DNA of 26,253 nt, from positions 80,574-106,826 of IMG/VR virus record IMGVR_UViG_3300031472_000015. One strand, 5' to 3'. The translations under genes were made by a program, and so were the position numbers. Positions 7,659 to 24,626 of the stretch are shown one piece after another (position 1 is the stretch's first letter; each line of letters opens with the position of its first letter). This DNA comes from a virus. The notes under the pieces are model-generated. The model did not search any database. It was given only the letters and a program-made list of their open reading frames with translations, and was not told where the DNA came from.

Positions 7659-10538
7659 CTACTCGGCAGCGGAGCGGTAGCGGTCCGCCTCGACCCGAGC
7701 TTTCAGCTCCGGGCGTCGGAAGAAGATCGGGCGACCGCACCGGAGCGGGGCGGCGCCGCGGCGGAAGATGATCGCCTCGTCGGCGCGCATCCGGGTCCGC
7801 ACCTCGTCGGGCTTGATCAGTTCGCGGGCCTGCTCAGACAGGCCCTCGTTCATGCCCCTGTTCCGGGACCCGGCCACGCCGCCGCTTTGCGTGCTGCTCG
7901 ATTGCCCTTGGGTGCGGGCGAGCACGGTGTACTTGCCGGCGGTCCGAGAAACTTCCTCCGCCGTGCCGTCATCGTCCACCGCGGCGAACAGGCGCCAGGA
8001 GCACGAGTTGAACCAGGAGCCTTTGCCTTCCTTGCCCCAGGTATCCGTGAGCTGGCCCAAGGACTGCCACATGCAGAGCAGGGTGATGCCATACTTGCGC
8101 CCAGCGTCCCGCGCATCCTCCAGCACTTTGAGCTTGCCGAGGAAGTTCACCTCGTCCAGCAGGAACAGCACCCGCCCGGATAACCTACCGTCTGCCCGAT
8201 AGGCCGCGCCCAGCAGCGAGCCGACGATCACGCGCGCCACCTCCGGCGTCGCGCGCAGCGACTCCATCGGCACCTGGATGAACACCGTCAGCTTGCCGCC
8301 GGCCAGCTCACCCGTCCCGAACGAGCCATCGGACAGCATGTCGGCATACACCTTGATCGACAGCCATTGCGTGTCGGCGTTGGCGTTTGAGTAGATGCCC
8401 GAGAAGGTTTCGTGGAACACGTCCACCAACGTTCCGGCCAAGTCCCGGGCAAGCGGGCTTTCGGAGCCAACCTGGATGTCCGCCAGCAGGCCCTTCATCT
8501 TCTTCTCAGGGGTGCGGACTCGTGCGCGCAGCTCACGCAGCGTCTTTTGGCTGGCCGGCACCTTGCTGTCCCACAGCAGATCGGCCAGCAGGCACGTCAG
8601 CAACTCCTTGCCGCGCACCTTGAAGATTGAGTTTTCGCCGGCCTGGTTGGGCGGTGTCTCCCCCGCCACGCGCTCGATCACCGCTTGCACGTAGGTTTCG
8701 GCCAGGGGGTCGCGCGGGTCTATCCAGTCCAGCACGTTCACGCCGCCCAGGCCGGGGCCGATCATGACGACCTTGTGCCCCATGTCCCGGCGCATGGGCG
8801 CAGTCATCGGCCCGACCTGGCATGAGGGGTCCAGCACCACCGCAGATCCCGTCCAGTAGGCCAGGGTGGGGATCGCGACCGCCGTCGTATTGTGAGTGAC
8901 GACGTAGTTGTCTGTAACATACAGTCCATCGTCGGATGTCAGTGATATACAAATGGCCGGCTTCATTCCCACGGATTCGATTGAGACGATATTTAAGCGA
9001 TGCCGCATGATTTTCGGTTGGCAACTTTCGACTTTACGCGGGACCGAGAACAGCGACGCAATGTCTGGATGCACGATACTGACACGCCAGGACGGGCGAC
9101 CATCCTTTATGATGCCTAGGTAGGTGTAGTTGGTCTGCTGTGGGCGAATGGTTGCTATGGCACCGAGCGACCATGCCAGTTCCTGCACGTCACGCGCGAG
9201 CCTTTCGCTCGTGGTTACGAAAATGGCATAGGTTGAGCGCCCGCCTTGAACCGCCCCATCGGTATCAAGCAATCCCTGTAGCAGGGCCAGTCTTTGCGCT
9301 GCACTGCCAATTTTGTACATATCCGGCACGAATTTCTCATGCGACCGGCAGCCCCATAGGTTTAGACTTTCTAGCGACAGACGGAGCGGCGAGTGCTTGC
9401 GCAGCACCTTCATCGCTAGGGCATGATCATACGTCCCCGGATTGTTTCTGGCTCTGTAATCTGGAAGGTCGTACAGCATCCGATCAAGAATGGGCTGATC
9501 GGCGGTAGAGAGCATGACGGTGCTTCCAGACGAGAAATTCCCATCACCCAGCAGCGTTCCAAGGGCGTATGGCGGAATGGGCAGGGTTTGCTGCGGCATC
9601 TCTACCGCAAACGGCTCAACCAACGGGACAGCCAGCGCCTTCCATGCGCTCCGCTTGTTGTGGAGGCGGTCGCGTATCTTGGATAGGGAGTAAACGCACC
9701 ATCCGACGCTGCGCTTACCCCTGACGCCGCACTCTCCAGAGCTTTCCCACGTTCTCGTCCACACCTTCCACAGGTGATCGTCACAGCACTCAACCGTGCG
9801 TCCATCTTTGAACGTTACGCGCCATATCTCCTTCACCCCTTGGGGATGCACACCCGCAATACACACTGGATGGCCTCCCGGCGATTGCACCAAGTCCCTG
9901 ACACGGAGATCACCGATCTGACGAAATCCAGTAGGCGTAAGCACTTTGGCGTCCAGTGGTTGCGCCTTGTAGCCGCCGCTGCCGGCGAACACGGCGCCAT
10001 GCGTCGCGTCGGAGGTGCAGGGGTCGATCAGCAAGGGCGCCTTGCCGCCCTGGCCCCACGTCTTGGGATCGTCGGGGTTCAGGCGGACGGCAGCCACGCT
10101 GTCCTGATCGACGCGGTAAGCCTCTCCAACCACGACACCGCCATAGCCAGGTGCCGGGCCGGGGAATAGCTCACGGGCAGCCTTGATGGTCAGCCAGTCT
10201 GCGTTGCCGTGCGTGTCCGACAAGGCCCGTTGCGGTTTGGGCGGCGTCTCACCCTGGCGCGCGGCGCGCAGTGGGTGGCGGGAGGGACGGAACAGCATGA
10301 TGGCGGCCGGCAAGGCGGCGAGGATGCCGGCGCCCGCGGCGCAGATCGGCAGCCACTTAGCGACTGCCGGCAACCCGCTGTAGTCGCGCCAGTAGAAGTA
10401 GGCGGAAACCGGCGCGACCCAGGGGCTCAGGCTGTTCCAGGTGTGCAGGGCGGTGCCGAGTGCGAATGAGGTCAACGGCAGCCACAGGGCCGCGCCGATG
10501 CCGAGGGCGGCGGTGGTCGCCAGCAACCGGCGCTTCAT
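7659..10538 (-). CDS. virD4: Type IV coupling protein (Ti TraG/VirD4 type), intein-containing precursor: 959 aa, about 600 aa after splicing
   Basis: ATG at 10538 overlaps the upstream stop (ATGA). Two N-terminal hydrophobic segments, HGNADW, VVVGEAYRVD, Walker A AGSGGYK|TT split by the intein, VVLDPS, NVLDWID, Walker B LFLLDEV, GRKYGITL..WQSLGQL, RELIKPDEV. Confidence 0.93.
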   Translation of the reverse strand: MKRRLLATTAALGIGAALWLPLTSFALGTALHTWNSLSPWVAPVSAYFYWRDYSGLPAVAKWLPICAAGAGILAALPAAIMLFRPSRHPLRAARQGETPPKPQRALSDTHGNADWLTIKAARELFPGPAPGYGGVVVGEAYRVDQDSVAAVRLNPDDPKTWGQGGKAPLLIDPCTSDATHGAVFAGSGGYKAQPLDAKVLTPTGFRQIGDLRVRDLVQSPGGHPVCIAGVHPQGVKEIWRVTFKDGRTVECCDDHLWKVWTRTWESSGECGVRGKRSVGWCVYSLSKIRDRLHNKRSAWKALAVPLVEPFAVEMPQQTLPIPPYALGTLLGDGNFSSGSTVMLSTADQPILDRMLYDLPDYRARNNPGTYDHALAMKVLRKHSPLRLSLESLNLWGCRSHEKFVPDMYKIGSAAQRLALLQGLLDTDGAVQGGRSTYAIFVTTSERLARDVQELAWSLGAIATIRPQQTNYTYLGIIKDGRPSWRVSIVHPDIASLFSVPRKVESCQPKIMRHRLNIVSIESVGMKPAICISLTSDDGLYVTDNYVVTHNTTAVAIPTLAYWTGSAVVLDPSCQVGPMTAPMRRDMGHKVVMIGPGLGGVNVLDWIDPRDPLAETYVQAVIERVAGETPPNQAGENSIFKVRGKELLTCLLADLLWDSKVPASQKTLRELRARVRTPEKKMKGLLADIQVGSESPLARDLAGTLVDVFHETFSGIYSNANADTQWLSIKVYADMLSDGSFGTGELAGGKLTVFIQVPMESLRATPEVARVIVGSLLGAAYRADGRLSGRVLFLLDEVNFLGKLKVLEDARDAGRKYGITLLCMWQSLGQLTDTWGKEGKGSWFNSCSWRLFAAVDDDGTAEEVSRTAGKYTVLARTQGQSSSTQSGGVAGSRNRGMNEGLSEQARELIKPDEVRTRMRADEAIIFRRGAAPLRCGRPIFFRRPELKARVEADRYRSAAE
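8889..9965 (-). mobile_element. Class 3 intein (359 aa) with LAGLIDADG homing endonuclease, inserted in VirD4 Walker A
   Basis: Block A AQPLDAKVLTPTG (Ala1), block B VECCDDHLW, blocks C/D/E/H LGTLLGDG, KFVP, LLQGLLDTDG, SERLARDVQELAWSLG, block F PAICISL, block G YVVTHN|T. Removing it restores GSGGYK-TTAV. GC is visibly lower than in the exteins. Confidence 0.95.
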
Positions 10539-10702
10539 CGCCGGGCTCCGGGGAGGTTGGCCAAGACCCTTGAGATGCGGACGAGCGCCACCGCGGGAGC
10601 GGCCAGCCACAGCGCGAAGGCGGCGGCCATCAGGGCAGGGAGGAGGCATCCGGCATAGGCAAAAGCGAGGACGAGGAACACGACGACATAGGAGGGGCGC
10701 AT
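10535..10702 (-). CDS. Small hydrophobic membrane protein (55 aa) between virB11 and virD4
   Basis: ATG at 10702, 4 nt after the virB11 stop, with RBS AAGGA. Sequence MRPSYVVVFLVLAFAYAGCLLPALMAAAFALWLAAPAVALVR. Its stop overlaps the virD4 start (ATGA). Confidence 0.6.
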   Translation of the reverse strand: MRPSYVVVFLVLAFAYAGCLLPALMAAAFALWLAAPAVALVRISRVLANLPGARR

Positions 10703-14496: not shown

Positions 14497-14675
14497 CAGC
14501 CATGCTCCCGGCTTGCGCTGATCATGCGGCCTGGCGCGGGGCTGAGCGGACTGGTGGCCAAGCTGGGGCGGTTGGCGGGCACCCACTCGCCGGTCGGCTC
14601 GGGCACGGTCGAGTACTCGTTGGAGGAGCAGCCAGCCAAGGCGAGGATGACGGCCAGGGAGAACAGCGGACGCAT
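14496..14675 (-). CDS. virB7: VirB7 lipoprotein (59 aa)
   Basis: MRPLFSLAVILALAG-CSS lipobox and P..G.W.P.N motif; lies between virB6 and virB8. Confidence 0.85.
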   Translation of the reverse strand: MRPLFSLAVILALAGCSSNEYSTVPEPTGEWVPANRPSLATSPLSPAPGRMISASREHG

Positions 14676-14680
14676 AGGGA

Positions 14681-15727
14681 TCAGCTCCGTGTGGAGTGCG
14701 TGATGGCAGGCGGCGGTGCGGGCGGCAGCGCGGCGGGGGCTTGCGAGCCAAGCTCCGGCCTGGCCAGGGACAGGCTGAGCGGCGGGGACGGCGGGCCAGG
14801 CGCCGGGATGGACGGGGCGGACCAGCCGCCGCCGCCGCGACCGAGAAAGGACAGGGCGTAGAGGGACGGCCCTGACAGCGCGATGCCGGTGCCGATGGAG
14901 TAGGCGAGGGGCTGGACGTTCCACATCACGTAGGCGCCGGCCAGGAACCATACGGCGATGGCGAGCATGACCTGGATCGCTTCGGCAAAGACGGCGGTGT
15001 TGGTCGAGGCGGTGATGATCGCGTTGGTCGCCTGGACCATGAACCACTGGTTGCCCAGCATGACCATCTGCAAGATCACGAAACCGATGACCTGCAGGAT
15101 GACCAGTGCGATCATCTTGCCGACCGCACGCTCGAAGATCGGCCGCGTCGCATCGAAGATGGCGCACCCGATGATGGCCGGGAACACGCAGACGATGGCG
15201 GCCAGGGTCATGCGCGCGACGATGTAGACCAGGGCAAGGAACCCAAGGCCGAGGCCGCCGACGAAGCCTGTCACGATGCCGGAGATGCCGGAGATCACGC
15301 CGGTGACGCTGAACCCGATTTGCATCCAGGCGGTGCCGATGATGACCCACATCTGGTTCCAGACGTTGTCGAAGATCGCGGCGGTGCTGGCGACGCTGTT
15401 GGCGGTCGGGCCGGTGCTGCTGGAGATGGCAGCCGCAAGGGCATTGGGAATGCCGGTGAAGAATACGTCCCGGACCCAATAGTTGAACGTGGCCAGGTTG
15501 GTCGAAAGGTAAAGGACCAAGCCGACCCGCACGAGCTGGGGGACGAAATTGTTCAGCGGCGAAGCGTCGCCGTTGGCCAACTTGACGCCTTGCATCGTGT
15601 AGTAGAGCGCGGCGCACAGGGCGAGCGGGGTGGACACATAGTTGACCATCGCGCTGACGATCCCATCCATGCCGGCGGACATCGCACCGTCGAAGCGGGT
15701 CACGAAGGTGCCGATCGGCGCGAACAT
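14681..15727 (-). CDS. virB6: VirB6/TrbL polytopic membrane protein
   Basis: ATG at 15727 (TGATG overlap). Multiple TM segments, FNYWVRDVFFTGIP, PAIIGCAIFDATRPIFERAV, Pro-rich C-tail. Confidence 0.9.
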   Translation of the reverse strand: MFAPIGTFVTRFDGAMSAGMDGIVSAMVNYVSTPLALCAALYYTMQGVKLANGDASPLNNFVPQLVRVGLVLYLSTNLATFNYWVRDVFFTGIPNALAAAISSSTGPTANSVASTAAIFDNVWNQMWVIIGTAWMQIGFSVTGVISGISGIVTGFVGGLGLGFLALVYIVARMTLAAIVCVFPAIIGCAIFDATRPIFERAVGKMIALVILQVIGFVILQMVMLGNQWFMVQATNAIITASTNTAVFAEAIQVMLAIAVWFLAGAYVMWNVQPLAYSIGTGIALSGPSLYALSFLGRGGGGWSAPSIPAPGPPSPPLSLSLARPELGSQAPAALPPAPPPAITHSTRS

Positions 15728-16098
15728 CAGCCGGCCCCGACCCGGCCGTTGCTCATGAGGGACGGCACGCACCGGGCCAGAGGATCGAACGGCCTGATCT
15801 TGTCGGCGGCGATCCAGCCTGGCCGGTTGTCGAGAGTGACGACCTCGGCGTAGCCGTTGACGACATGGCGGGGCGTCTTGGCGAACACGATGTTGGACGC
15901 GGTGACCAGCGTCGCCGCATCAGGGCGCGGATCAGCCAGGATCGGCACGCCCGGCCCGTGGCGATCAGCCAGTTGTGCCTCGGGCACATTCAGGACGGTG
16001 CAGGCCACCCCATCAAGAGGATGGACGACCTGCGGCTCTGCAGCCATGGCGGATACGGCGCACAGCACGGAGGCGGCGGCCAGGGTGATCCTGGTCAT
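15727..16098 (-). CDS. Secreted SH3b-like protein (123 aa) in the virB5-virB6 (eex) slot
   Basis: ATG at 16098 overlaps the virB5 stop (ATGA). Signal peptide ending SAMA-AE. SH3b-like pattern PILADPRPDA...VNGYAEV....RPGWIAADKIRPF, with a Cys pair. It is the C-terminal part of ORF-track 15727..17664. Confidence 0.75.
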   Translation of the reverse strand: MTRITLAAASVLCAVSAMAAEPQVVHPLDGVACTVLNVPEAQLADRHGPGVPILADPRPDAATLVTASNIVFAKTPRHVVNGYAEVVTLDNRPGWIAADKIRPFDPLARCVPSLMSNGRVGAG

Positions 16099-17567
16099 GT
16101 GTTCATCCCGAGCAGCACGGGTTGGCTGGCTGCGCTGGCACCGATCTTGTTGGTGATCGATGTCCGCCACTGGCCGACGGTCATGTTCGCCGAGATGCCG
16201 TTGGCGACGAGGGTGGAGCTGGACATGCCGGCCAGCGCGGTGGTCATGAGCTGGTTGCTGGGCGCGCTGGCCAGGCTTCCGGCATAGCCGGGTCCATAGT
16301 TGTAGTAGCCGCGGACATCGAGGACCGTGGGGTTGGCGATGCCGGCGGCCTGCAGGGCGGTGGCGCCGTCCTTGAGGTAGGCCGCGGCGGCGATGGACTG
16401 GCTTGCAGGGTCGTTCTTGGTGGTGATCTGGGACGCCAGGTCCGGATTGTTCTTTTGGACCTCGCTCACGGTCTGGGCGTAGGTGCCGTTCGACATCTGG
16501 AACGCGCCGCTGATGGTGCCGGTGCCACCGGGGTTGGCGGTGCAGTTGGACTCCAGCGAGCATGTTGCCGCCAGCGCGGTTGGATTGACGCCAAGGGCGG
16601 CGGCATTGCGGGCCGCCGCCTGGCCCCAGGGCTGGCTGGTCATCTTCGACAGCGTGGAGCCGTCGTCGGCGATCCCGCTGCCGCCTGTCGCGCTGACCAG
16701 CGTGCCGGTGGTCCCGCCGGCAACCATATCGGGGGACGCTGCCGGTGCGACGTTGCAACTGCTGGTGGCGGCGCTGCTGGCCAGGATGACGGCGCCGCCG
16801 GCCGCCGAGCTTGCGCTGCTGCCCGCCTGCCGCACCAACGCCTCGGCCGAGCAGCGCCACGCCTGCAGCTCGCGCGCGGCGTCCGTCGTCGCCTGGGCGT
16901 GCTGCATGATGCCGACCGCGGCGAGCTGGTTGCCTTGGGTCTGCGCCATCGCTTGCTCGCCGGCAAAGCGGGCGGATGCGTCGGTCGATGCCTTGATGTC
17001 GGTGGTGTTGCTCAGGCTGGAGCGCAGGCTGGTCAGCTCGGTCAGCCGCTTGCCGCTGCTGTCCAGCGCGGCCTGGGCGATCACCTTCTGGTAGGCGGCG
17101 GACGACGCGGTCTGGTTGATCGCCGCGGCCCGGAAGTCCGAGCCGGTCGGCGCATAGAACATATCGCTCCGCATCACGTTCTGCGCCAAGGAGGCAGTCT
17201 GCGTCATGCTGGATGACAAAGTGCCTGTCGCGCTCGCGAGGCCGCTGAGCGCCTCCCCCAGCCCCGCCGTGTCGGCGCCGAAGGGGTTGGTCAGGCCCAT
17301 TGAGCTGAGTTGCGGGCCAAGCTCGGAAACGGCGGCCAGGTTGCCATGACTGACCGCGGCAAGCGTATCGCGCAGGTGGACGATCTGAGTGATCTGGTTG
17401 TCGATGATCGTCATCTGGTTGGCGATCTTGACCGCATCCTTGGCCACCGTCTGGCCGAACTGGCTCAAGGTGGCCGCCTCGGTCGCCGGGTCCGAGACGA
17501 TCCATTGCGCGCGGGCGCCGCCGGCGTGCAGGCACAGGGCGGTGCAGGCGGCGAGGGTCTTCTTCAT
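16095..17567 (-). CDS. virB5: VirB5-like pilus-tip protein fused to a C-terminal lytic transglycosylase (SLT/lysozyme-like) domain
   Basis: Signal peptide ARA-QWIVSDP, helical NQMTIIDNQITQI, and RLTELTSLRSSLSNTTDIKASTDASARFAGEQA (VirB5 signature) over about the first 250 aa. After a G/S/T/A linker come LGVNPTALAATCSLES (Glu339), GAFQM, NDPASQSIAAAAYL and YYNYGPG. Confidence 0.85.
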   Translation of the reverse strand: MKKTLAACTALCLHAGGARAQWIVSDPATEAATLSQFGQTVAKDAVKIANQMTIIDNQITQIVHLRDTLAAVSHGNLAAVSELGPQLSSMGLTNPFGADTAGLGEALSGLASATGTLSSSMTQTASLAQNVMRSDMFYAPTGSDFRAAAINQTASSAAYQKVIAQAALDSSGKRLTELTSLRSSLSNTTDIKASTDASARFAGEQAMAQTQGNQLAAVGIMQHAQATTDAARELQAWRCSAEALVRQAGSSASSAAGGAVILASSAATSSCNVAPAASPDMVAGGTTGTLVSATGGSGIADDGSTLSKMTSQPWGQAAARNAAALGVNPTALAATCSLESNCTANPGGTGTISGAFQMSNGTYAQTVSEVQKNNPDLASQITTKNDPASQSIAAAAYLKDGATALQAAGIANPTVLDVRGYYNYGPGYAGSLASAPSNQLMTTALAGMSSSTLVANGISANMTVGQWRTSITNKIGASAASQPVLLGMNT

Positions 17568-19972
17568 TCGGCGGCGCTCCTGAATTGCAAGGTCGAGGGT
17601 TCGTCAACGACGCCGGGGGCCATGCGCTCGTAATGCGGCACCCACGCTTGCGGGTCTTCGCCATGCCGCGCGATCAGCCGGTTCATCAGGTCGTAGGTTG
17701 CGCGGCGCCCGGAGATGACGGCGATCTTGTCGGCCGCAGCGCTCAGGTCGAAACGGCACAGCACGGACCCGCTGGGCCGCTTGATGAGGAAGGTGTGCTT
17801 GAGGCTCGGCAATTGCTGGGTGACGGCCAGGAACTCCGCCTCGGTCAACCCCATGCCGTCGCACAGGTCGGCCCGGTTGCCAGTCTCGTCGCCGAAGAAA
17901 ATCTTGGTGGGGATCTGCTGCATGAGCGTGTGCGCGTTGGGACTGTTCAGCGCATCGCGGGCGCTTTGTGTCGCCAGCAGCACGACACCCTCGTTCTTGC
18001 GGATCGTCTTCAACTGGTCGTTGTTCTCGTCGCGGAACGCAGGGACCTGGTCGGTCTGCCAGAACTCGTCGATTGCGAGGACGATGGGGAGGCCGTCGAT
18101 CAACTTGCGGGTGCGGTAGAACAGGTAGGACAGGGTCGGCGAGCACACCGTGTCGTCGCGGAGCAGGGCGGTGGTGTCGAACCCAACCACGCGCGCATCC
18201 ATGCAGATCAGGTCGCGTTCGTTGTCGAACGCCCAGCCAAGCTCCTCACCGTGGCACCAGCGTTGAAGCCGAGCGCCAGCGCCGTTCTTCTGCCGCTGGC
18301 CCAGCATGACGACGATGCCGCCGATGCTGCGCTCGCCGGAGGGCATCCGCATCTGCATCTCGACGGCGCGGACCAGCCGGCGACCCTCGTCAGGTGACAG
18401 GTCGCCCTTGCCGTCCGACAGGATCAGGCTGCGGTGGAACTTGACCAGGAAGGCAACATCCTGCCCGTTGTTGCCTAAGCCCCGCAACGGCGCCGACCCG
18501 GACGACACCCCCGATTGCAGCGGCAGGTAGGACCCACCAACAGCGCGCACCATCGCGCTCAGGCCATAGTCCTTGTCGATAATGACAACCCGCACGGTGG
18601 CGTTGCGCAGCGCCAGCATCGAAATGCTGCCGAGGAGGGATGTCTTGCCGCTCCCGGCACCGCCGATCAGGAGACAGCTTCCAAGGTCCTCCTTGGGGAT
18701 GGATACCGCGCCCTGGACGTGGAAGTGGAAGGCATACTCGGTGTCCGAAGTCGTCCGGAGCATGACGATGGGAGCGCCCCAGCGGCCCTTGTAGATACCC
18801 CGGGGCACGTTGTGCCGGGCCGCCAAGCCAACGGCGTTGATGCTTTTGACCAGGCCGGGCCGAGGACGCCAGCGCATGTTGCCCGGGACTTGCGCGTAGA
18901 AGGCGGCCTTGAGCGCATCGGTTTCGCGAACGCTGGTGATGCCGGCTTCCGACAGGACGGTCTGGCACTTGGAGATGCGGCGGTCCAGCTCCTGCAAGTT
19001 AGACGCATGGACGGCCACCGAGAAATGGTGGGTGACGTAAACGCTGCGCCCGCTTTGCACGTCGTCTTCGTCCTGGACCAGCTCCTCGACTTGGGACCGG
19101 GCGGCGTCGTTGCCGCTTTGCATCTGCTTGACGCGCAGGCTGATGCTGGCCAGCGCGTCAGCCTTCTGCTTGCACCGGGTGGAGTTGGTGATGGTGATCG
19201 GGAACGGCACCGAGCGGAGTGGGGTGAACAAGGTCGGCCGGGTGCGGGCCGGGTAGTCCTTGAACGACAGCAGGCCGATGAACAGCGGCTCGCCCTCGCA
19301 CATCACCTGCAAGTCCTGGTGCCCGAACACAACGCGGTCCGGCACGACCAGGGCGCCCAGCCGTCCCAGGGTCAGTCCCATCGGCCGGAACCGGCCGTTG
19401 ACGATCAGGTGGAGGGCTTCGGCAATCTCCGAGAAGACGACGCCATCTGCTTCGCGGGTGCCCAACCGGCGCGCGCCGTAGCGGACCAGGCTAGCGCCGA
19501 TCTTGTCCAGCACCGTCTCGAAGTCCTGCAGCTCGATGTCCGCAACCTGCGGGTGGTCGCTGACGGTTCCGCCGAACAGGGACCGCAGGCCGGTCGCCAG
19601 GCTGTCCTCGGGGTGCATGATGACGGTAACGAACAGGTCGTTGCGGTAGAGCGTGCCGTCGCCCTGGGCGTCGCGGTAAGCGTCATCGAAGCGGGCGGCA
19701 AACCAGTTGTCGATAGGGGGCAGCGTCGCCATGCGCTGCCGGTCCTGCCGGACGAAATGGTCCCACACCTCAATGCGAGGGTGGGAGATGTTGCGGACCG
19801 ACTGGTTGTCGCGCGTGTTCGCGGAAACGATGGCCTGAGCGCCAGACAGCTCCGCAGCCAACCCGGCAAGGTGGAACATCGCGCTCAGCGAGCCGTCCTG
19901 GTTGACGACGACGCCAGGCGTCCAATGCCCAATCTGCGGCTGGAAACGCCGGGCGTTGCGGTCAGTCGGCAC
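17564..19972 (-). CDS. virB4: VirB4 ATPase
   Basis: GTG at 19972 with RBS GGGAG. RNDLFVTV, FKDYP, AAFYAQVPGN, FHFH, Walker A GGAGSGKT, IIDKDYG, Walker B AIDEFW, LKTIRKNEG, ATQS. Confidence 0.95.
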   Translation of the reverse strand: MPTDRNARRFQPQIGHWTPGVVVNQDGSLSAMFHLAGLAAELSGAQAIVSANTRDNQSVRNISHPRIEVWDHFVRQDRQRMATLPPIDNWFAARFDDAYRDAQGDGTLYRNDLFVTVIMHPEDSLATGLRSLFGGTVSDHPQVADIELQDFETVLDKIGASLVRYGARRLGTREADGVVFSEIAEALHLIVNGRFRPMGLTLGRLGALVVPDRVVFGHQDLQVMCEGEPLFIGLLSFKDYPARTRPTLFTPLRSVPFPITITNSTRCKQKADALASISLRVKQMQSGNDAARSQVEELVQDEDDVQSGRSVYVTHHFSVAVHASNLQELDRRISKCQTVLSEAGITSVRETDALKAAFYAQVPGNMRWRPRPGLVKSINAVGLAARHNVPRGIYKGRWGAPIVMLRTTSDTEYAFHFHVQGAVSIPKEDLGSCLLIGGAGSGKTSLLGSISMLALRNATVRVVIIDKDYGLSAMVRAVGGSYLPLQSGVSSGSAPLRGLGNNGQDVAFLVKFHRSLILSDGKGDLSPDEGRRLVRAVEMQMRMPSGERSIGGIVVMLGQRQKNGAGARLQRWCHGEELGWAFDNERDLICMDARVVGFDTTALLRDDTVCSPTLSYLFYRTRKLIDGLPIVLAIDEFWQTDQVPAFRDENNDQLKTIRKNEGVVLLATQSARDALNSPNAHTLMQQIPTKIFFGDETGNRADLCDGMGLTEAEFLAVTQQLPSLKHTFLIKRPSGSVLCRFDLSAAADKIAVISGRRATYDLMNRLIARHGEDPQAWVPHYERMAPGVVDEPSTLQFRSAAE

Positions 19973-20291
19973 GCTGGGTTGCTCCCAAGGGGTCGGTGCT
20001 GTCGCCGCCCCAGCGGCCCCGGTCAGCGAACAGCGAGCCGGACAGCATGGCGAGCAGCAGCACGCGCGGGCGGTTGTGATCGGTGGCGACCAGCCAGCGG
20101 CCAAGGGCCGTCAAGACAACCATCAAGGACAGCCACAGCGGGTTGCTGGTGACGACGACGATCAGGGCTGGCAGGCCGGTGATCGGCAAGATGAACCAAA
20201 ATGGGATGTTGAACCCCTTGATGACGGCCGGCCGGGTTGCCCCAACCGACAAGCCATCCCAGGGCACGTCCTCGTTGCCCCGGGCCGTCAT
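19962..20291 (-). CDS. virB3: VirB3
   Basis: L.VGATRPAVIKGFNIP motif and two TM segments; between virB2 and virB4 with overlapping ends. Confidence 0.9.
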   Translation of the reverse strand: MTARGNEDVPWDGLSVGATRPAVIKGFNIPFWFILPITGLPALIVVVTSNPLWLSLMVVLTALGRWLVATDHNRPRVLLLAMLSGSLFADRGRWGGDSTDPLGATQRAD

Positions 20292-20587
20292 CAGACGATG
20301 CCGTACGCGGTCAGCAGGTAAGAAGCGCCGAAACTCAGGGCGAGGCCGCCCACAGCCGCGCCGAGGTAGGGCACGAAACGGCGGCCTTCACCGACCGCCA
20401 TCACGCCGTGCACCGCGCAGATGAGGCAGATGACGATGCCAGCGAGCTTGAGCGCGTAGGGCAGCAGAACCGTCAGACCGGCGACGGGATCAACCCCGCC
20501 AGTGACGTTGATGGCATAGGCGGGCGTGCCTGCCGTAGCCAGAACGCCGGCGGCGAACAGGAACAAGGGTGCTGAGTGGGACTTCAT
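20291..20587 (-). CDS. virB2: VirB2/TrbC pilin
   Basis: 98 aa with a signal peptide ending PAYA, two hydrophobic helices and an LSFGA motif; coupled to virB1 (ATGA) and virB3 (TGATG). Confidence 0.85.
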   Translation of the reverse strand: MKSHSAPLFLFAAGVLATAGTPAYAINVTGGVDPVAGLTVLLPYALKLAGIVICLICAVHGVMAVGEGRRFVPYLGAAVGGLALSFGASYLLTAYGIV

Positions 20588-21231
20588 GGGTTGTCCTTTC
20601 GGGTATTGTGGTTGAAGGCGTCACCCAGCCCGTCCTGGTCGTCTTGGACGGCTGAGCTGGCATGGAGAGCATCCTCCAAGCCGGGAGGAGGGCGGCGCGG
20701 CGATGGCGCAGCGATGTCCTCGGGTGTGGCCGGGGCCTGGATGGCGCCGGCGATCTGGATGGCGGGGATGACTAGCGCGGCTGCACGCCACACGCGGGCG
20801 GCGTAAGCGGCGCCACGGTCAAGAGTGCCGGTGTTATAACAGGAAGCCATCGCACGGAGACGCTGCTGCTCAGCGCCGACAGTGCGGGCGTAGCAGCCGG
20901 CTAGAACCTCGGCGCTGACGCGAAAGCTAGTGCAGGCGTCAAATGACGCAGAGAGAGCAAGCCCGCGGGCCTGCAGGTGTCCCGCACGCCAAGAGATTTG
21001 CGCGGCACCTAGATCGACAGAGTGCCCGGCTGCGATAAGAGACGCAGCGGTTGCTACCGCATCTGGCAACGTGGCAGGCGCATAGCTGCGTCGATCCGTA
21101 TTGTCGCCAATGGCAAAGGCATTAAGGTTGCTTTCGGCCTTAGCAAACGACAGCAGCGTTTCAGGGGCAACGCCACCCGCGCAGGTCTGGGCCAACTGTA
21201 AGGCTACGAGGAGGGACAGGGTGCCGGACAT
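20584..21231 (-). CDS. virB1: VirB1 lytic transglycosylase
   Basis: ATG at 21231 with RBS GGAGAGG. CAGGVAPETL...AES.LNAFAIGDN, SVDLGAAQI, FDACTS, SCYNTG, Y..RV. Confidence 0.92.
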   Translation of the reverse strand: MSGTLSLLVALQLAQTCAGGVAPETLLSFAKAESNLNAFAIGDNTDRRSYAPATLPDAVATAASLIAAGHSVDLGAAQISWRAGHLQARGLALSASFDACTSFRVSAEVLAGCYARTVGAEQQRLRAMASCYNTGTLDRGAAYAARVWRAAALVIPAIQIAGAIQAPATPEDIAAPSPRRPPPGLEDALHASSAVQDDQDGLGDAFNHNTRKDNP

Positions 21232-21277
21232 GCGCCTCTCCAGCGGAGGCACGCTTCACTGCTACTCCCGCTCTAGC

Positions 21278-22359: not shown

Positions 22360-23016
22360 ATGGGGTTTGTGTATCGGTTGGACTTTACGTCCGGCAAGAG
22401 TTACGTGGGTATCACTACAAAATCTGTTGCCATGCGTTTCAAGGCGCACGCTAGGAATGTAAAGAGCGGGCGCTTAGCGCATGTTTACGCTGCATGGCGC
22501 AAGTATGGTGCTCCTTCTGCTGTATGCCTTGAGGAATTGCCCAATTGTGAATTGCATGCGGCAGAGGTGCGGTGGGTGCTGAGGGAAAAGACCCTGCGTC
22601 CGGGCGGTTATAATATGACGACTGGTGGGGACATTTCACCAGCACTTATGCCAGAAGTTAAACTGAAGATGTCAGCGGCCCAAAAAGCATATGCAAAGAC
22701 ACCAGATGGCATTGCTAGGATAAACCGCAATAAAATTAAGTCGCCTGAAACAGGCGCTAAGATATCAGCCGCACTTAAATTAAGAAACGCTAATCTAGAA
22801 TATAGAAAGAGAATGGGCGAGGCCATTCGTCGGGGCCAATCTACTAATAAGGCTCGTGCGAATATGTCAGCAGGGCAAAGACACAGGGCTCCAATGTCCG
22901 TAGAGACCAAAGGACGACTTGCGGATATAGGCAGAGCTTTCTCTCTTACTCCGGAAGGAAGGGCGATCATATCGCGCGCAGCGGATGCTAGAAGATTGCA
23001 AGCCAAGCCAAAGTAA
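22360..23016 (+). CDS. Free-standing GIY-YIG homing endonuclease with NUMOD3-like basic repeats
   Basis: GFVY...KSYVGIT...RF..H...AWRKYG...E..W...GYNMTTGG, then repeats PEVKLKMS, SPETGAKIS, KARANMS, SVETKGRLA. AT-rich. ATG at 22360. Confidence 0.88.
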   Translation: MGFVYRLDFTSGKSYVGITTKSVAMRFKAHARNVKSGRLAHVYAAWRKYGAPSAVCLEELPNCELHAAEVRWVLREKTLRPGGYNMTTGGDISPALMPEVKLKMSAAQKAYAKTPDGIARINRNKIKSPETGAKISAALKLRNANLEYRKRMGEAIRRGQSTNKARANMSAGQRHRAPMSVETKGRLADIGRAFSLTPEGRAIISRAADARRLQAKPK

Positions 23017-24625
23017 GAAGTTTGTAAGAGAAGACTTCGACTACAAGAATCCAGACTATGTAAGTGTATTCCGCAGTCGCGTTGAAGCCCTGAATAGAAT
23101 TCGGGCTAACCCTGATAAGCTTCAGACTCTGAAAGCTTTTTACCGTGAGAATCCATCAAACTTTATAGATGACTGGGGTTGCACCTCTGACCCTAGGAAT
23201 GCCGCAGTCGGTCGCCCCGTCGTCCTGCCCTTTCTGCTGTTTGAACGTCAGCGCGAGTGGGTGAACTGGTTTATGGAAAGCTGGCGGACCAGCCGCCCTG
23301 GCGTCACGCCCAAGAGCCGCGAGTCTGGTATCTCATGGCTGGCCATCGCTTTGTCATGCACCCTATGCCTGTTCCATGATGGCTTAGTAGCGGGGTTCGG
23401 CAGTAGCAAATCCGAACTTGTGGACAAGCTGGGTAATCCCAACTCGTTGTTCTGGAAAGCGCGCGAGTTCATGGCGCTGCTCCCTCGCGAGTTCCGCGGC
23501 ACTTGGACGCGAGACGACGCTCCAGAGATGCGGATCAAGTTCCCAGATAGCGGCAGCGTCATTGTGGGGGAGGGCGGCGACAACCTAGGACGCGGCGGGC
23601 GCACTGCGTTTTACATCGTAGACGAGGCAGCTTCGTTGGAGCGCCCGCAACTTGTCGAAGCATCTCTGTCCGCAACAACAAACTGCCGGATTGACATCAG
23701 CACGCCGCGTGGAATGGGCAACCCCTTCCACACCAAAGTGACGACTTGGCCCGCTGAACGAGTTTTTTTCTTCCATTGGCGGTCGGACCCCCGCAAGGAC
23801 GAGGCTTGGTATCAGGATCAGCTTAGCAAGCTGGATGCCGTAACAATCGCCCAAGAGGTGGACATAGATTTCGCCGCTTCCATCGAAGGTGTCTTAATCC
23901 CAAGCGCGTGGGTTCAAGCCGCCGTGGACGCGCACCGCAAGCTAGGCATTGTGCCCACAGGCGCACGGCGAGCCGCGCTAGATGTATCTGACCAAGGTCC
24001 CGACACGAATGCCCTTTGCGGCGCACACGGCGTGCTTGTGGACCTGATGGAAGAATGGTCAGGCAAAGGCAGCGACATCTTCCGCACGGCGCAGCGCGCA
24101 TATGATCTGTGCGACACACACGGCTATGACAGCCTTAAATATGACGCCGACGGGCTAGGTTCCAGCATTCGCGGCGCGGCGCGCATCATCAACGAGCAGC
24201 GGGTTAAGCAAGGCATCAAGCCTCTGGCCGCAGACCCGTTCCAGGGGTCAGGCAAGGTGTTTGAACCGACCCGCAAAGACGCGAACAGCGGCCGACTCAA
24301 CCAAGACATGTTCCTCAACTGCAAGGCGCAGTCGTGGTGGGCGGTGCGGACGCGCTTTCAAGCAACATTCCGCGCAGTGACAGAGGGCGTTACGTGTCCG
24401 CCGGACAGCATCATCAGCCTGTCGCCAAGCCTACCGCTGCTGGCACAATTGTGCGGCGAACTGTCGCAGCCAACGTACACGATCAACGGCGTGGGGAAGA
24501 TCGTGGTGGACAAGACTCCCGAGGGCGCACGTTCGCCCAACCTTGCTGACGCGCTCATGATCCGGTTCTCCCAGACCACCCGCGCGCCGCTGACGGTATC
24601 TACTGCCGCCCTGGCCCTGATCTAG
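22985..24625 (+). CDS. terL: Phage terminase large subunit
   Basis: FDYKNPDY...FIDDWGCTSDPRN, PFLLFERQ, Walker A variant KSRESGISW, GRGGR, Walker B IVDEAA, ISTPRG, RNaseH-like LDVSDQGPD, YDADGLG, SPNLADAL. The start is uncertain because it overlaps the endonuclease. Confidence 0.93.
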   Translation: MLEDCKPSQSKKFVREDFDYKNPDYVSVFRSRVEALNRIRANPDKLQTLKAFYRENPSNFIDDWGCTSDPRNAAVGRPVVLPFLLFERQREWVNWFMESWRTSRPGVTPKSRESGISWLAIALSCTLCLFHDGLVAGFGSSKSELVDKLGNPNSLFWKAREFMALLPREFRGTWTRDDAPEMRIKFPDSGSVIVGEGGDNLGRGGRTAFYIVDEAASLERPQLVEASLSATTNCRIDISTPRGMGNPFHTKVTTWPAERVFFFHWRSDPRKDEAWYQDQLSKLDAVTIAQEVDIDFAASIEGVLIPSAWVQAAVDAHRKLGIVPTGARRAALDVSDQGPDTNALCGAHGVLVDLMEEWSGKGSDIFRTAQRAYDLCDTHGYDSLKYDADGLGSSIRGAARIINEQRVKQGIKPLAADPFQGSGKVFEPTRKDANSGRLNQDMFLNCKAQSWWAVRTRFQATFRAVTEGVTCPPDSIISLSPSLPLLAQLCGELSQPTYTINGVGKIVVDKTPEGARSPNLADALMIRFSQTTRAPLTVSTAALALI

Positions 24626-24626
24626 C

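What the first reader, a model, noticed from the sequence alone, without database searches (positions are those of the whole stretch)
15727..17567. 'Evolved' VirB5: pilus-tip protein carrying a lytic transglycosylase, coupled to a secreted SH3-like partner in the entry-exclusion slot
Seen: one 490-aa frame has a VirB5-like half, a low-complexity linker of about 55 aa, and an SLT domain with all three motifs (ES at Glu339, 16551-16553; GAFQM; YNYGPG). A normal VirB1 is also present, so the domain is not simply replacing the donor-side muramidase. The next gene overlaps by ATGA and encodes a signal-peptide SH3b-like protein. Known: VirB5 is normally about 220-260 aa and sits at the pilus tip; R388 and pKM101 carry eex between virB5 and virB6; T6SS evolved VgrG muramidases are followed by periplasmic immunity genes. 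Inference: the pilus tip may deliver a muramidase to open or attack the recipient wall. The SH3-like protein could be its inhibitor, giving both immunity and entry exclusion.
Basis: partly seen in the sequence, partly recalled or inferred. Interest (0 to 1): 0.85.

Follow-up and report, generated by a model that had tools for sequence, protein, structure and literature searches.

The report
VirB5 fused to wall-cutting enzyme
A conjugation system encodes its pilus-tip protein VirB5 fused to a cell-wall-cutting enzyme, always followed by a small secreted SH3-like partner. This unannotated two-gene module is widespread, and it could show how a DNA-transfer machine gets through a cell wall, whether the donor's or the recipient's.

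Summary
Window 16095-17567(-) is one intact 490-aa frame. It has a signal peptide and a complete VirB5: Pfam PF07996 at E 4e-18, and a family profile matches R388 TrwJ at E 2e-15. A Cys-bounded segment and an Ala/Ser/Gly linker follow. The last 185 aa form a lytic-transglycosylase fold (pLDDT 91.6; phiKZ gp144 Z 15.4) with Glu339-Ser340 invariant. It is not a frameshift artefact, because more than 100 protein clusters down to 37% identity share the architecture.

The next gene (15727-16098, ATGA overlap) encodes a secreted SH3b-like protein (pLDDT 92.4). The new result is that this partner follows the enzyme domain, not the VirB5/VirB6 slot. It lies directly downstream in all 81 loci that have room. 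In 76 of those the enzyme is not fused to VirB5, and in 47 of them it lies within 5 kb of a MobF relaxase gene, mostly in Acetobacteraceae.

The entry-exclusion reading therefore rests on position only. Whether the partner inhibits or targets the enzyme, and whether the enzyme cuts donor or recipient wall, is unresolved. The complex predictor was unavailable. I favour a FlgJ-like tethered cutter for the machine's own passage. I found no description in the papers searched.

The parts
16095..17567 (-). Gene for the 490-aa VirB5-lytic transglycosylase fusion (P0001). Its ATG overlaps the virB4 stop (ATGA).
17508..17567 (-). Signal peptide, aa 1-20 (...GGARA|QW)
   Evidence: Sequence inspection. 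PF13605 (DUF4141) matches aa 3-28 at E 8e-5, below its cutoff.
16863..17507 (-). Complete VirB5 domain, aa 21-235
   Evidence: PF07996 E 3.9e-18 and TIGR02791 E 3e-16. Profile match to TrwJ 7o3v at E 2.4e-15 and TraC 1r8i at E 4.8e-10.
16755..16862 (-). Conserved segment bounded by two cysteines (WRCSAE...C), aa 236-271. Possibly a disulfide loop at the end of VirB5.
   Evidence: C239 is nearly invariant and the consensus shows a second Cys. Mean pairwise identity 0.40.
16653..16754 (-). Low-complexity Ala/Ser/Gly/Thr linker, aa 272-305
   Evidence: Mean pairwise identity 0.25. Model residues 1-8 (aa 295-302) have pLDDT below 50.
16098..16652 (-). Lytic-transglycosylase (GH23/SLT-like) domain, aa 306-490. 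Motifs: C336-x-x-E339-S340-x-C342, G354-A-F-Q-M, Y422-N-Y-G-P-G.
   Evidence: AF2 pLDDT 91.6. gp144 Z 15.4, MltE Z 11. Invariant residues. Alignment to EmtA. Mean pairwise identity 0.65.
16551..16553 (-). Codon of the predicted catalytic Glu339 (GAG)
15727..16098 (-). Gene for the 123-aa secreted SH3b-like partner (P0002). ATGA overlap with the fusion gene, TGATG overlap with virB6. Conserved C33 and C110, W95, and a C-terminal C-x-P-x-x-M-S-N-G-R-x-G motif.
20584..21252 (-). Separate canonical VirB1 lytic transglycosylase of the same operon
   Evidence: NF010438 E 9e-23 and PF01464 E 2.5e-4. No similarity to the fused domain.
17564..20104 (-). VirB4 ATPase, directly upstream
   Evidence: NF010427 E 2.5e-191
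14681..15727 (-). VirB6/TrbL, directly downstream of the partner
   Evidence: PF04610 E 4e-21. Start read.

Best explanation
Shown: the gene encodes a complete, Sec-exported VirB5 with a family-1 (GH23, SLT-type) lytic transglycosylase domain attached to its C-terminal end through a Cys-bounded segment and a flexible linker. The enzyme domain and the small secreted SH3b-like protein after it form an old, obligate two-gene module. That module also exists unfused, in an operon next to MobF relaxase genes.

Inferred mechanism: VirB5 is modelled as a pentamer that sits on VirB6 in the periplasmic stalk and is pushed outward as the pilus grows beneath it. The fusion would then place five tethered wall-cutters at the leading end of the growing structure. 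They would open peptidoglycan locally for the machine's own passage. This is the logic of the flagellar rod cap FlgJ, which is fused to a wall hydrolase in some lineages and recruits a separate lytic transglycosylase in others.

The partner, made in the same compartment by translational coupling, most likely binds the enzyme domain, the wall, or both, and confines where or when the enzyme acts. I cannot say whether it acts as a brake or as a wall-binding targeting subunit.
For: Architecture and folds.

The fusion is real and old:
- 115 of the proteins retrieved carry both halves, down to 37% identity.
- On the SLT-domain tree, the fused/unfused label needs only 3 changes among 131 sequences.

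The enzyme is under strong constraint:
- E339, S340, C336, C342, F356 and Q357 are invariant.
- The SLT domain averages 65% pairwise identity against 40% for VirB5.

Strict partnership:
- The partner is directly downstream in 81 of 81 loci with room.
- It is also there in six further contigs, reached either from distant fusion proteins or from distant partners.
- The plasmid record sets are nearly the same: 61 records for the enzyme and 56 for the partner.

Other support:
- The ATGA and TGATG overlaps place the module in one translational unit, virB4 to virB6.
- The partner is SH3b-like. Its best structural matches are wall-binding domains of endolysins and NlpC/P60 enzymes: Z 7.5, 6.9 and 6.5, Foldseek probability about 1, and Atlas SH3_3/SH3_4 clusters.
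- VirB5 starts in the periplasm on top of VirB6 before becoming the tip, and how VirB1-type activity is stopped is described as not fully understood (PMC12624023).
- The FlgJ fused-versus-split precedent is in the abstract of PMC8517470.
Against: - No activity, localisation or binding data exist for this family.
- A canonical VirB1 is kept in the window, and VirB1-like genes are seen in relatives L003, L004, L010, L085, L086 and L088. A second donor-side cutter is therefore not obviously needed.
- A stoichiometric partner in the same compartment makes most sense as an inhibitor if the enzyme acts somewhere else. That favours the recipient-directed rival.
- The nearest solved structure is phage phiKZ gp144 (Z 15.4). 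The hit list also holds the T7 internal core protein domain (Z 10.3) and the phi6 lysin (Z 10.2), though these score no higher than the bacterial housekeeping enzymes MltE, Slt and MltF.
- Five 20-kDa domains would have to pass through the outer-membrane complex with the tip, or be cleaved off.
- I did not establish where the VirB5 C-terminus points in the pentamer (one search gave no answer).
Confidence: 0.45

Rival explanations
1. The pilus tip carries the enzyme to the recipient, where it opens or attacks the recipient's wall. The partner is a periplasmic inhibitor that keeps the enzyme silent in the donor and gives immunity and entry exclusion to cells that already carry the element.
For: - Both proteins are exported to the same compartment and are translationally coupled, as expected for an enzyme that must be kept silent until it leaves the cell.
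- The pair is never separated: 81 of 81 loci.
- Over wide divergence the partner is never convincingly fused to the enzyme. The only single-ORF cases have garbled junctions.
- The closest solved structure is the phage enzyme phiKZ gp144, and the hit list includes the T7 core protein domain and the phi6 lysin.
- VirB5 is said to be potentially pore-forming at the tip (PMC12624023).
Against: - The partner also accompanies the unfused enzyme, which has its own signal peptide and is not part of a pilus-tip protein.
- I saw no lipobox or membrane anchor of the kind I recall for known exclusion proteins (my own knowledge).
- No orphan partner genes were seen.
- The enzyme domain is highly conserved (65% mean identity), so any exclusion would not be element-specific.
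- The partner's fold is that of wall-binding domains. It gave no Pfam match at all, so none to the Ivy, MliC or PliG inhibitor families.
- The tip would have to cross the recipient's outer membrane first.
Confidence: 0.2
2. The enzyme acts on the donor wall as in the best explanation, but the partner is purely a non-covalent wall-binding subunit that raises affinity or processivity, like the separately encoded binding subunit of the streptococcal phage lysin PlyC. It is not a brake.
For: The best structural matches are cell-wall-binding SH3b domains of endolysins, amidases and NlpC/P60 hydrolases. Strict adjacency and coupling fit a two-subunit enzyme.
Against: - Wall-binding domains are normally fused in cis. 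Here the enzyme fused to VirB5 but never convincingly to the partner.
- The most conserved part of the partner is its C-terminal hairpin motif, tied by a conserved cysteine pair. I could not map this motif onto the usual SH3b binding groove.
- The SH3b match is modest (Z below 8).
Confidence: 0.25
3. The pair is a toxin-immunity or addiction module (a plasmid-borne lytic enzyme with a periplasmic antidote) that merely hitch-hikes in transfer operons and has no role in DNA transfer.
For: Strict enzyme-plus-small-periplasmic-protein pairing on plasmids, including small mobilisable ones without a secretion system of their own.
Against: - The module always sits inside transfer operons. In the fused form it lies between virB4 and virB6. 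Of the 76 unfused loci, 47 have a MobF relaxase gene within 5 kb. In the two annotated plasmids examined, the enzyme gene follows P-loop and coiled-coil transfer-type genes in an operon divergent from mobF.
- It has been fused in frame to an essential structural protein for a long time.
- No orphan antidotes were seen.
Confidence: 0.07
4. The fusion is an assembly or frameshift artefact, or the enzyme domain is a dead remnant.
For: None found. Pfam does not detect the domain.
Against: - More than 100 independent clusters of 475-500 aa from many samples share the frame.
- Catalytic and motif residues are invariant.
- The SLT domain is the best-conserved part of the protein.
Confidence: 0.01

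Closest known systems
VirB5 family: TrwJ of R388, TraC of pKM101, VirB5 of Agrobacterium
   Same: Full-length homology of aa 1-235 (PF07996; profile match to TrwJ and TraC). Signal peptide. Position between virB4 and virB6.
   Different: About 255 extra C-terminal residues: a Cys-bounded segment, a linker and an enzyme domain. TrwJ is 229 aa in the solved structure. Neither of the two recent T4SS reviews I keyword-searched for VirB5 (PMC12857230, PMC12624023) showed an enzyme-bearing VirB5.
VirB1-type specialised lytic transglycosylases of secretion systems (VirB1, TrwN, TrbN, P19/Orf169)
   Same: The same enzyme superfamily and the same kind of task, opening peptidoglycan for a transfer machine. 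The unfused relatives sit next to relaxase genes, as P19/Orf169 does near oriT in F-like plasmids (my own knowledge).
   Different: No detectable sequence similarity to the element's own VirB1. Not detected by PF01464. Has a Cys-x-x-Glu-Ser-x-Cys signature. Is covalently tethered to VirB5. Has an obligate partner protein, which I do not know of for VirB1 enzymes.
FlgJ rod cap with fused wall hydrolase, versus single-domain FlgJ plus the separate lytic transglycosylase SltF
   Same: The cap protein of a structure that grows from its base carries the wall-cutting enzyme. The same function exists in fused and split forms in different lineages (PMC8517470 abstract).
   Different: A different machine and unrelated cap proteins. 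FlgJ's enzyme domain is a glucosaminidase (abstract of PMC13584718). I know of no dedicated SH3b-like partner there.
Phage lytic transglycosylases: phiKZ gp144, T7 internal core protein domain, phi6 lysin
   Same: phiKZ gp144 is the closest solved fold (Z 15.4). The T7 core protein domain scores Z 10.3 and the phi6 lysin Z 10.2. As I recall, these enzymes cut the target cell's wall during nucleic-acid entry.
   Different: Only 15-20% identity. These are phage proteins. No VirB5 and no partner gene. The T7 and phi6 matches score no higher than the bacterial housekeeping enzymes in the same list.
'Evolved' VgrG spikes of type VI secretion, and X-Tfe/X-Tfi pairs of bacteria-killing type IV systems
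   Same: A tip or secreted component carries a wall-degrading domain, next to a gene for a periplasmic protein (my own knowledge; PMC6536674 is listed).
   Different: Here the enzyme is Sec-exported with its carrier. No orphan immunity genes were seen. The pair also exists without any tip protein. Killing has not been shown.
Pilin-lysozyme-like fusions of Patescibacteria T4SS (Pfam SLT_3, PF18896), noted earlier in this scan
   Same: A wall-cutting domain mounted on a pilus component of a type IV secretion system (earlier notes e1-1018656 and e1-844403).
   Different: The carrier is the VirB2-like pilin, not VirB5. The enzyme family and the phylum differ. I did not test those notes.

Membership tests
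VirB5 (Pfam PF07996 / TIGR02791) | Sequence match to the family model above its threshold | tested here: met
   PF07996 scores 67 bits against a cutoff of 24.7, E 3.9e-18. TIGR02791 scores only 59.8 bits against an equivalog cutoff of 132, so this is a divergent member.
VirB5 (Pfam PF07996 / TIGR02791) | Homology to structurally solved VirB5 proteins over their whole length | tested here: met
   The family profile matches TrwJ (7o3v) at E 2.4e-15 over chain residues 1-216 of 229, and TraC (1r8i) at E 4.8e-10.
VirB5 (Pfam PF07996 / TIGR02791) | Gene between virB4 and virB6 in a VirB-type operon, with a signal peptide | tested here: met
   sequence
VirB5 (Pfam PF07996 / TIGR02791) | Pentamer on VirB6 and location at the pilus tip | not testable with these tools
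   Needs structure or microscopy. The complex predictor was unavailable.
Family 1 lytic transglycosylase (GH23, Pfam SLT PF01464) | Match to the Pfam SLT model | tested here: not met
   No Pfam hit for aa 290-490, even at E 10.
Family 1 lytic transglycosylase (GH23, Pfam SLT PF01464) | Lysozyme-like SLT fold | tested here: met
   Model pLDDT 91.6. gp144 gives Foldseek E 1.6e-5 and VIA Z 15.4 over 167 residues. MltE, Slt, MltF and MltC give Z 10-11.
Family 1 lytic transglycosylase (GH23, Pfam SLT PF01464) | Catalytic Glu-Ser plus the GLMQ-type and AYNxG-type motifs | tested here: met
   The alignment to EmtA/MltE puts LESN on IESG, GAFQM on GLMQL, and YNYGPG on SYANG. E339, S340, F356 and Q357 are invariant, and Y422 and G425 are at least 90% conserved.
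Family 1 lytic transglycosylase (GH23, Pfam SLT PF01464) | Cleavage of peptidoglycan with 1,6-anhydro-muramyl product | not testable with these tools
   Needs a biochemical assay.
Bacterial SH3 (SH3b; Pfam SH3_3 PF08239, SH3_4 PF06347) | Match to a Pfam SH3b model | tested here: not met
   No Pfam hit for P0002 apart from noise at E 0.93. No significant PDB sequence match for the family profile (best E 0.72).
Bacterial SH3 (SH3b; Pfam SH3_3 PF08239, SH3_4 PF06347) | SH3b-type small beta-barrel fold | tested here: inconclusive
   The top matches are consistently SH3b wall-binding domains, but the scores are modest: Z 7.5, 6.9 and 6.5, Foldseek E 0.03-0.1 with probability about 1, and Atlas TM 0.55 to an SH3_3/SH3_4 cluster.
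Entry-exclusion proteins of VirB-type plasmids (Eex of pKM101/R388, TrbK of RP4) | Small lipoprotein or membrane-anchored protein | tested here: not met
   The signal peptide ends ...SAMA|AE. The only early Cys (C13) is not in a lipobox and is not conserved in the family. The defining feature itself is from my own knowledge.
Entry-exclusion proteins of VirB-type plasmids (Eex of pKM101/R388, TrbK of RP4) | Gene tied to the mating-pair-formation operon | tested here: not met
   76 of 81 partner genes lie next to an unfused enzyme gene with no virB genes within 5 kb.
Entry-exclusion proteins of VirB-type plasmids (Eex of pKM101/R388, TrbK of RP4) | Reduces transfer when expressed in the recipient | not testable with these tools
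   Needs a mating assay.
Effector-immunity pair (evolved VgrG type; X-Tfe/X-Tfi) | Adjacent gene for a periplasmic protein that binds and neutralises the enzyme | tested here: inconclusive
   Adjacency and export are met. Binding and neutralisation are untested. The complex predictor was unavailable.
Proteinaceous lysozyme / transglycosylase inhibitors (Ivy, MliC/PliC, PliG) | Sequence or fold of one of these families | tested here: inconclusive
   No Pfam hit of any kind. The fold lists are filled by SH3 domains, which does not exclude an inhibitor of a new kind.

The most novel reading that the evidence does not exclude
A conjugative pilus tip delivers an active lytic transglycosylase into the recipient's periplasm to open its wall for DNA entry, as phage T7 does with its ejected core protein. 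The SH3b-like partner would be a new class of proteinaceous transglycosylase inhibitor that silences the enzyme in the donor and protects or excludes cells that already carry the element.
Probability: 0.18. Interest if true: 0.9.

Novelty: new variant of a known kind. Interest (0 to 1): 0.66.

Why it matters
Two questions about conjugation remain open: how the growing pilus and the transferred DNA cross peptidoglycan, and how the wall-cutting activity of these machines is switched off. PMC12624023 says the regulation of VirB1 is not fully understood.

This family offers a natural experiment on both. The cutter is covalently tied to the component that is modelled as leading pilus growth and later touching the recipient. 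It always comes with one dedicated small protein. The same pair also exists untethered on small mobilisable plasmids.

Neither the enzyme domain nor the partner matched any Pfam, NCBIfam or PHROG model in my scans. Where the source databases name the fusion proteins at all, they call them hypothetical or plain type IV secretion proteins. Well over a hundred sequence clusters have therefore gone unnoticed. The fused form occurs in assemblies labelled Acetobacteraceae, Hyphomicrobiales, Novosphingopyxis, Janthinobacterium and Steroidobacteraceae. The unfused form occurs mainly in Acetobacteraceae, including vinegar, kombucha and insect-gut strains and Roseomonas.

One point mutation (E339Q) and one small deletion, each tested in donors and in recipients, would separate the readings.

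Tried and rejected
No binding statement is made.
- Pfam at E 10 and PHROGs on the enzyme domain and the partner: no hits.
- NCBIfam on the partner: none.
- Profile of the partner family against PDB sequences: nothing significant.
- The fused domain as a duplicate of the element's VirB1: rejected, BLASTP E above 3.
- The gene upstream of the unfused enzyme as an unrecognised VirB5, which would make the fusion a simple joining of neighbours: rejected. A VirB5 profile gives no hit, and those genes look like a P-loop TraL/MobD-type protein and a coiled-coil membrane protein.
- Enzyme-partner fusions in one polypeptide (P0119, P0200, P0219): rejected as evidence, because the junctions are garbled and look like frameshifted gene calls.
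- Phage genomes: no partner homologue among 50,697 phage records.
- Fetching R388 to compare its eex gene: the record is not in the collections.
- Orientation of the VirB5 C-terminus in the R388 stalk: not recoverable from the text of PMC9259494.
- Literature: searches for VirB5 with 'lytic transglycosylase', 'fusion', 'SLT domain', 'C-terminal extension' and 'peptidoglycan' found no description of this architecture.
- This scan's earlier notes hold no look-alike sequence.

Full report
**What is there.** On the minus strand the window carries a complete VirB-type conjugation operon:
- VirB1: 20584-21252
- VirB2-like: 20291-20587
- VirB3: 19962-20291
- VirB4: 17564-20104
- the gene in question: 16095-17567
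- a small gene: 15727-16098
- VirB6: 14681-15727
- VirB8, VirB9, VirB10 and VirB11
- a coupling protein that carries a LAGLIDADG-type insert
- on the other strand, a TrwC-type (MobF) relaxase

The gene in question translates without interruption to 490 residues. Its start overlaps the virB4 stop (ATGA) and its stop overlaps the start of the small gene (ATGA). The small gene's stop in turn overlaps the virB6 start (TGATG). All four genes are therefore read as one translationally coupled block.

**The N-terminal half is a whole VirB5.**
- Pfam PF07996 matches residues 44-233 at E 3.9e-18, well above its threshold.
- TIGR02791 covers residues 1-232, though below its equivalog cutoff.
- A profile built from the family matches R388 TrwJ, from the solved secretion-system structure, at E 2.4e-15 over residues 1-216 of its 229. 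It matches pKM101 TraC at E 4.8e-10.

The extra sequence therefore begins where an ordinary VirB5 ends.

**The C-terminal part is a lytic transglycosylase that the family libraries miss.**
- Pfam and PHROGs give nothing, even at permissive thresholds.
- A plain sequence search of solved structures gives only weak hits. All of them are lytic transglycosylases (E. coli EmtA/MltE, phiKZ gp144). The alignment places LESN, GAFQM and YNYGPG on the three family-1 motifs.
- An AlphaFold2 model of residues 295-490, built on 39 relatives, is confident (mean pLDDT 91.6).
- Foldseek returns lytic transglycosylases at the top, led by gp144 at E 1.6e-5.
- On re-alignment gp144 scores Z 15.4 over 167 residues, clearly above the rest. 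MltE, Slt, MltF and MltC give Z 10-11. The T7 internal core protein domain (Z 10.3) and the phi6 lysin (Z 10.2) are in the same range.
- Across 39 relatives, Glu339, Ser340, Phe356, Gln357 and two cysteines flanking the catalytic Glu (Cys336, Cys342) are invariant.
- Among 33 full-length members, this domain averages 65% pairwise identity. VirB5 averages 40% and the low-complexity linker 25%.

This is the pattern of a working enzyme, not a remnant. The domain has no detectable similarity to the element's own VirB1, so it is not a local duplicate.

**The joint has two parts.** Residues 236-271 form a conserved segment bounded by two cysteines (WRCSAE...C). Residues 272-305 are Ala/Ser/Gly/Thr-rich and variable.

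**The fusion is not an artefact.**
- The word-indexed search found 257 relatives. The best 120 are nearly all 475-500 residues long and cover the whole query, down to 37% identity, from many independent samples.
- 115 of the proteins I retrieved carry both halves.
- Three distant members were inspected in their contigs. All sit between virB4 and virB6.

**The partner.** The 123-residue product of 15727-16098 has a signal-peptide-like start (...SAMA|AE) with no lipobox, and no family match.
- An exhaustive HMMER search found 134 representative clusters, almost all 120-135 residues long.
- The alignment shows two conserved cysteines (33 and 110), a conserved Trp, and a strongly conserved C-terminal motif C-x-P-x-x-M-S-N-G-R-x-G.
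- Its model is confident (pLDDT 92.4).
- The best structural matches are consistently bacterial SH3 wall-binding domains of endolysins, amidases and NlpC/P60 enzymes. The scores are modest: Z 7.5, 6.9 and 6.5, and Foldseek E 0.03-0.1. The ESM Atlas look-up points the same way.

I accept 'SH3b-like' as the fold, with moderate confidence.

**The main new result: the partner belongs to the enzyme, not to the VirB5/VirB6 slot.** A scan of one genome per species returned 80 loci that encode the enzyme domain. I called ORFs in these loci and in two annotated plasmids, and searched them with iterated profiles.
- Of 83 enzyme genes, only 5 carry VirB5. A sixth, L006, is cut by the contig end but begins with the conserved end of VirB5.
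- The partner gene lies directly downstream in all 81 cases where the contig continues. The other two end at the enzyme gene.
- The same holds in six more contigs, reached either from distant fusion proteins or from the most distant partner sequences.
- No orphan partner was seen.
- In the plasmid collection the two genes hit nearly the same record sets: 61 and 56 records, with the same genera.

**The unfused enzymes.** They are 267-300 residues long: a signal peptide, a conserved peptide of about 30 residues, a Gly/Ser/Thr linker, then the enzyme domain.
- In the two annotated plasmids I examined, the enzyme gene lies in an operon divergent from a MobF relaxase gene. It follows a P-loop protein of TraL/MobD type and a coiled-coil membrane protein, and the partner and a small membrane protein come after it.
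- 47 of the 76 unfused loci have the relaxase within the 5-kb flank. None has virB genes there.
- Some of these plasmids are small and typed as mobilisable only.
- A tree of 131 enzyme domains needs only three changes of the fused/unfused label, and well-supported branches force only one. That is consistent with a single fusion or fission event.

The architecture, the intact motifs, the separate VirB1 and the SH3b-like partner are all confirmed.

The 'entry-exclusion slot' argument is weakened, for three reasons:
- The partner is in that slot only because the enzyme it accompanies became part of VirB5.
- The partner is soluble, not lipid-anchored.
- Some relatives have an additional small gene between the partner and virB6, which is a better exclusion candidate: a 137-aa secreted Cys-rich protein in L085, a 74-aa membrane protein in L086, and a 58-aa product in L091.

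The inhibitor idea remains open. In its favour:
- Both proteins go to the same compartment.
- They are coupled.
- They are never separated.
- They are never convincingly fused. The three apparent single-ORF fusions have garbled junctions.

Against it, the fold is that of wall-binding modules. The one tool that could have tested binding was unavailable.

**Mechanism I think most likely (inference).** Current models place a VirB5 pentamer on VirB6 in the periplasmic stalk. The pilus then grows beneath it and pushes it through the outer-membrane complex (PMC12624023; PMC12857230). A linker-tethered transglycosylase on each VirB5 would sit at the level of the wall, at the leading end of the growing structure.

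This is the arrangement of the flagellar rod cap FlgJ, which is fused to a wall hydrolase in some lineages and works with a separate enzyme in others (PMC8517470). The fused and unfused forms found here parallel it. The conserved N-terminal peptide of the unfused enzyme may be the docking element that the fusion replaces.

The partner would bind the enzyme or the wall and limit where or when cutting happens. I give this reading about 45%.

The recipient-directed reading gets about 20%. It is helped by two things: a stoichiometric partner in the same compartment makes most sense if the enzyme acts elsewhere, and the nearest solved structure is the phage enzyme gp144. It is hurt by the unfused form and by the outer-membrane barrier.

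A pure targeting-subunit role for the partner (about 25%) is a variant of the donor-side model.

**Comparison with what is known.** This is a member of the VirB5 family by sequence and synteny. Its enzyme domain is a member of the lytic-transglycosylase superfamily by fold and motifs, but not by the Pfam model. It works like known cases in which a wall hydrolase is mounted on a growing or piercing part: FlgJ, evolved VgrG, the T7 core protein, and the pilin-lysozyme fusions of Patescibacteria noted earlier in this scan. It is none of these.

I found no description of a VirB5-transglycosylase fusion or of its partner, either in keyword look-ups of two recent comprehensive reviews or in five full-text searches. 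No look-alike exists in this scan's earlier notes.

**Verdict.** This is a real, widespread and apparently undescribed variant of a core type IV secretion component, together with a new obligate two-gene module. Where the enzyme acts and what the partner does remain unproven.

Noticed in passing
window 7659-10649 (-): The coupling protein (T4SS-DNA_transf, TraG-D_C) carries a LAGLIDADG_3 match at aa 452-513.
   Followed up: partly
window 22985-26189 (+) and whole record G000: The window lies in a 106.8-kb IMG/VR 'virus' record that CheckV rates complete. A phage portal gene (PF06381, E 3e-73) and a neighbouring large ORF lie head-to-head with the virB operon. This may be a phage-plasmid or a conjugative element with a packaging module.
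   Followed up: partly
L089 1-2440 and L090 1-2113: In a related locus, the region upstream of the VirB5-SLT gene holds a 455-aa product cut by the contig end, a 93-aa gene and a 273-aa GIY-YIG/NUMOD3 gene. If the first product is VirB4, which I did not check, virB4 may be split by a homing endonuclease.
   Followed up: no
L086 1244-2884 and L087 536-2176: In a distant relative the virB1 position holds a 334-aa glycoside hydrolase family 16 protein, followed by a 210-aa VirB1-like protein with HES and GLMQIS motifs. That system therefore has three wall- or glycan-active domains.
   Followed up: no
L085 7808-8221; L086 7736-7960; L091 4382-4558: Some relatives have an extra small gene between the partner and virB6: a 137-aa secreted Cys-rich protein, a 74-aa membrane protein, and a 58-aa product. 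These are better entry-exclusion candidates than the partner. The window has no such gene.
   Followed up: partly
L001 7218-10228; L002 5621-9269: On the two Acetobacteraceae plasmids examined, the unfused module sits in an operon divergent from mobF: a P-loop protein (TraL/MobD-like), a coiled-coil membrane protein, the enzyme, the partner and a small membrane protein. None has a Pfam hit.
   Followed up: partly
L007 (Terriglobus sp. plasmid 2) and L045 (Acidobacteriaceae MAG): The unfused enzyme-partner module (with a relaxase gene in the flank in both loci) also occurs in records labelled Acidobacteriota. This suggests transfer across phyla, or mis-binning.
   Followed up: no
window 14640-14675 (-): A short ORF starting MRPLFSLAVILA begins just after the virB6 stop. 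It is probably the VirB7 lipoprotein. Relatives have 55-81-aa lipobox proteins at the same place (L085 9281-9451, L086 8979-9146, L088 8897-9142).
   Followed up: partly
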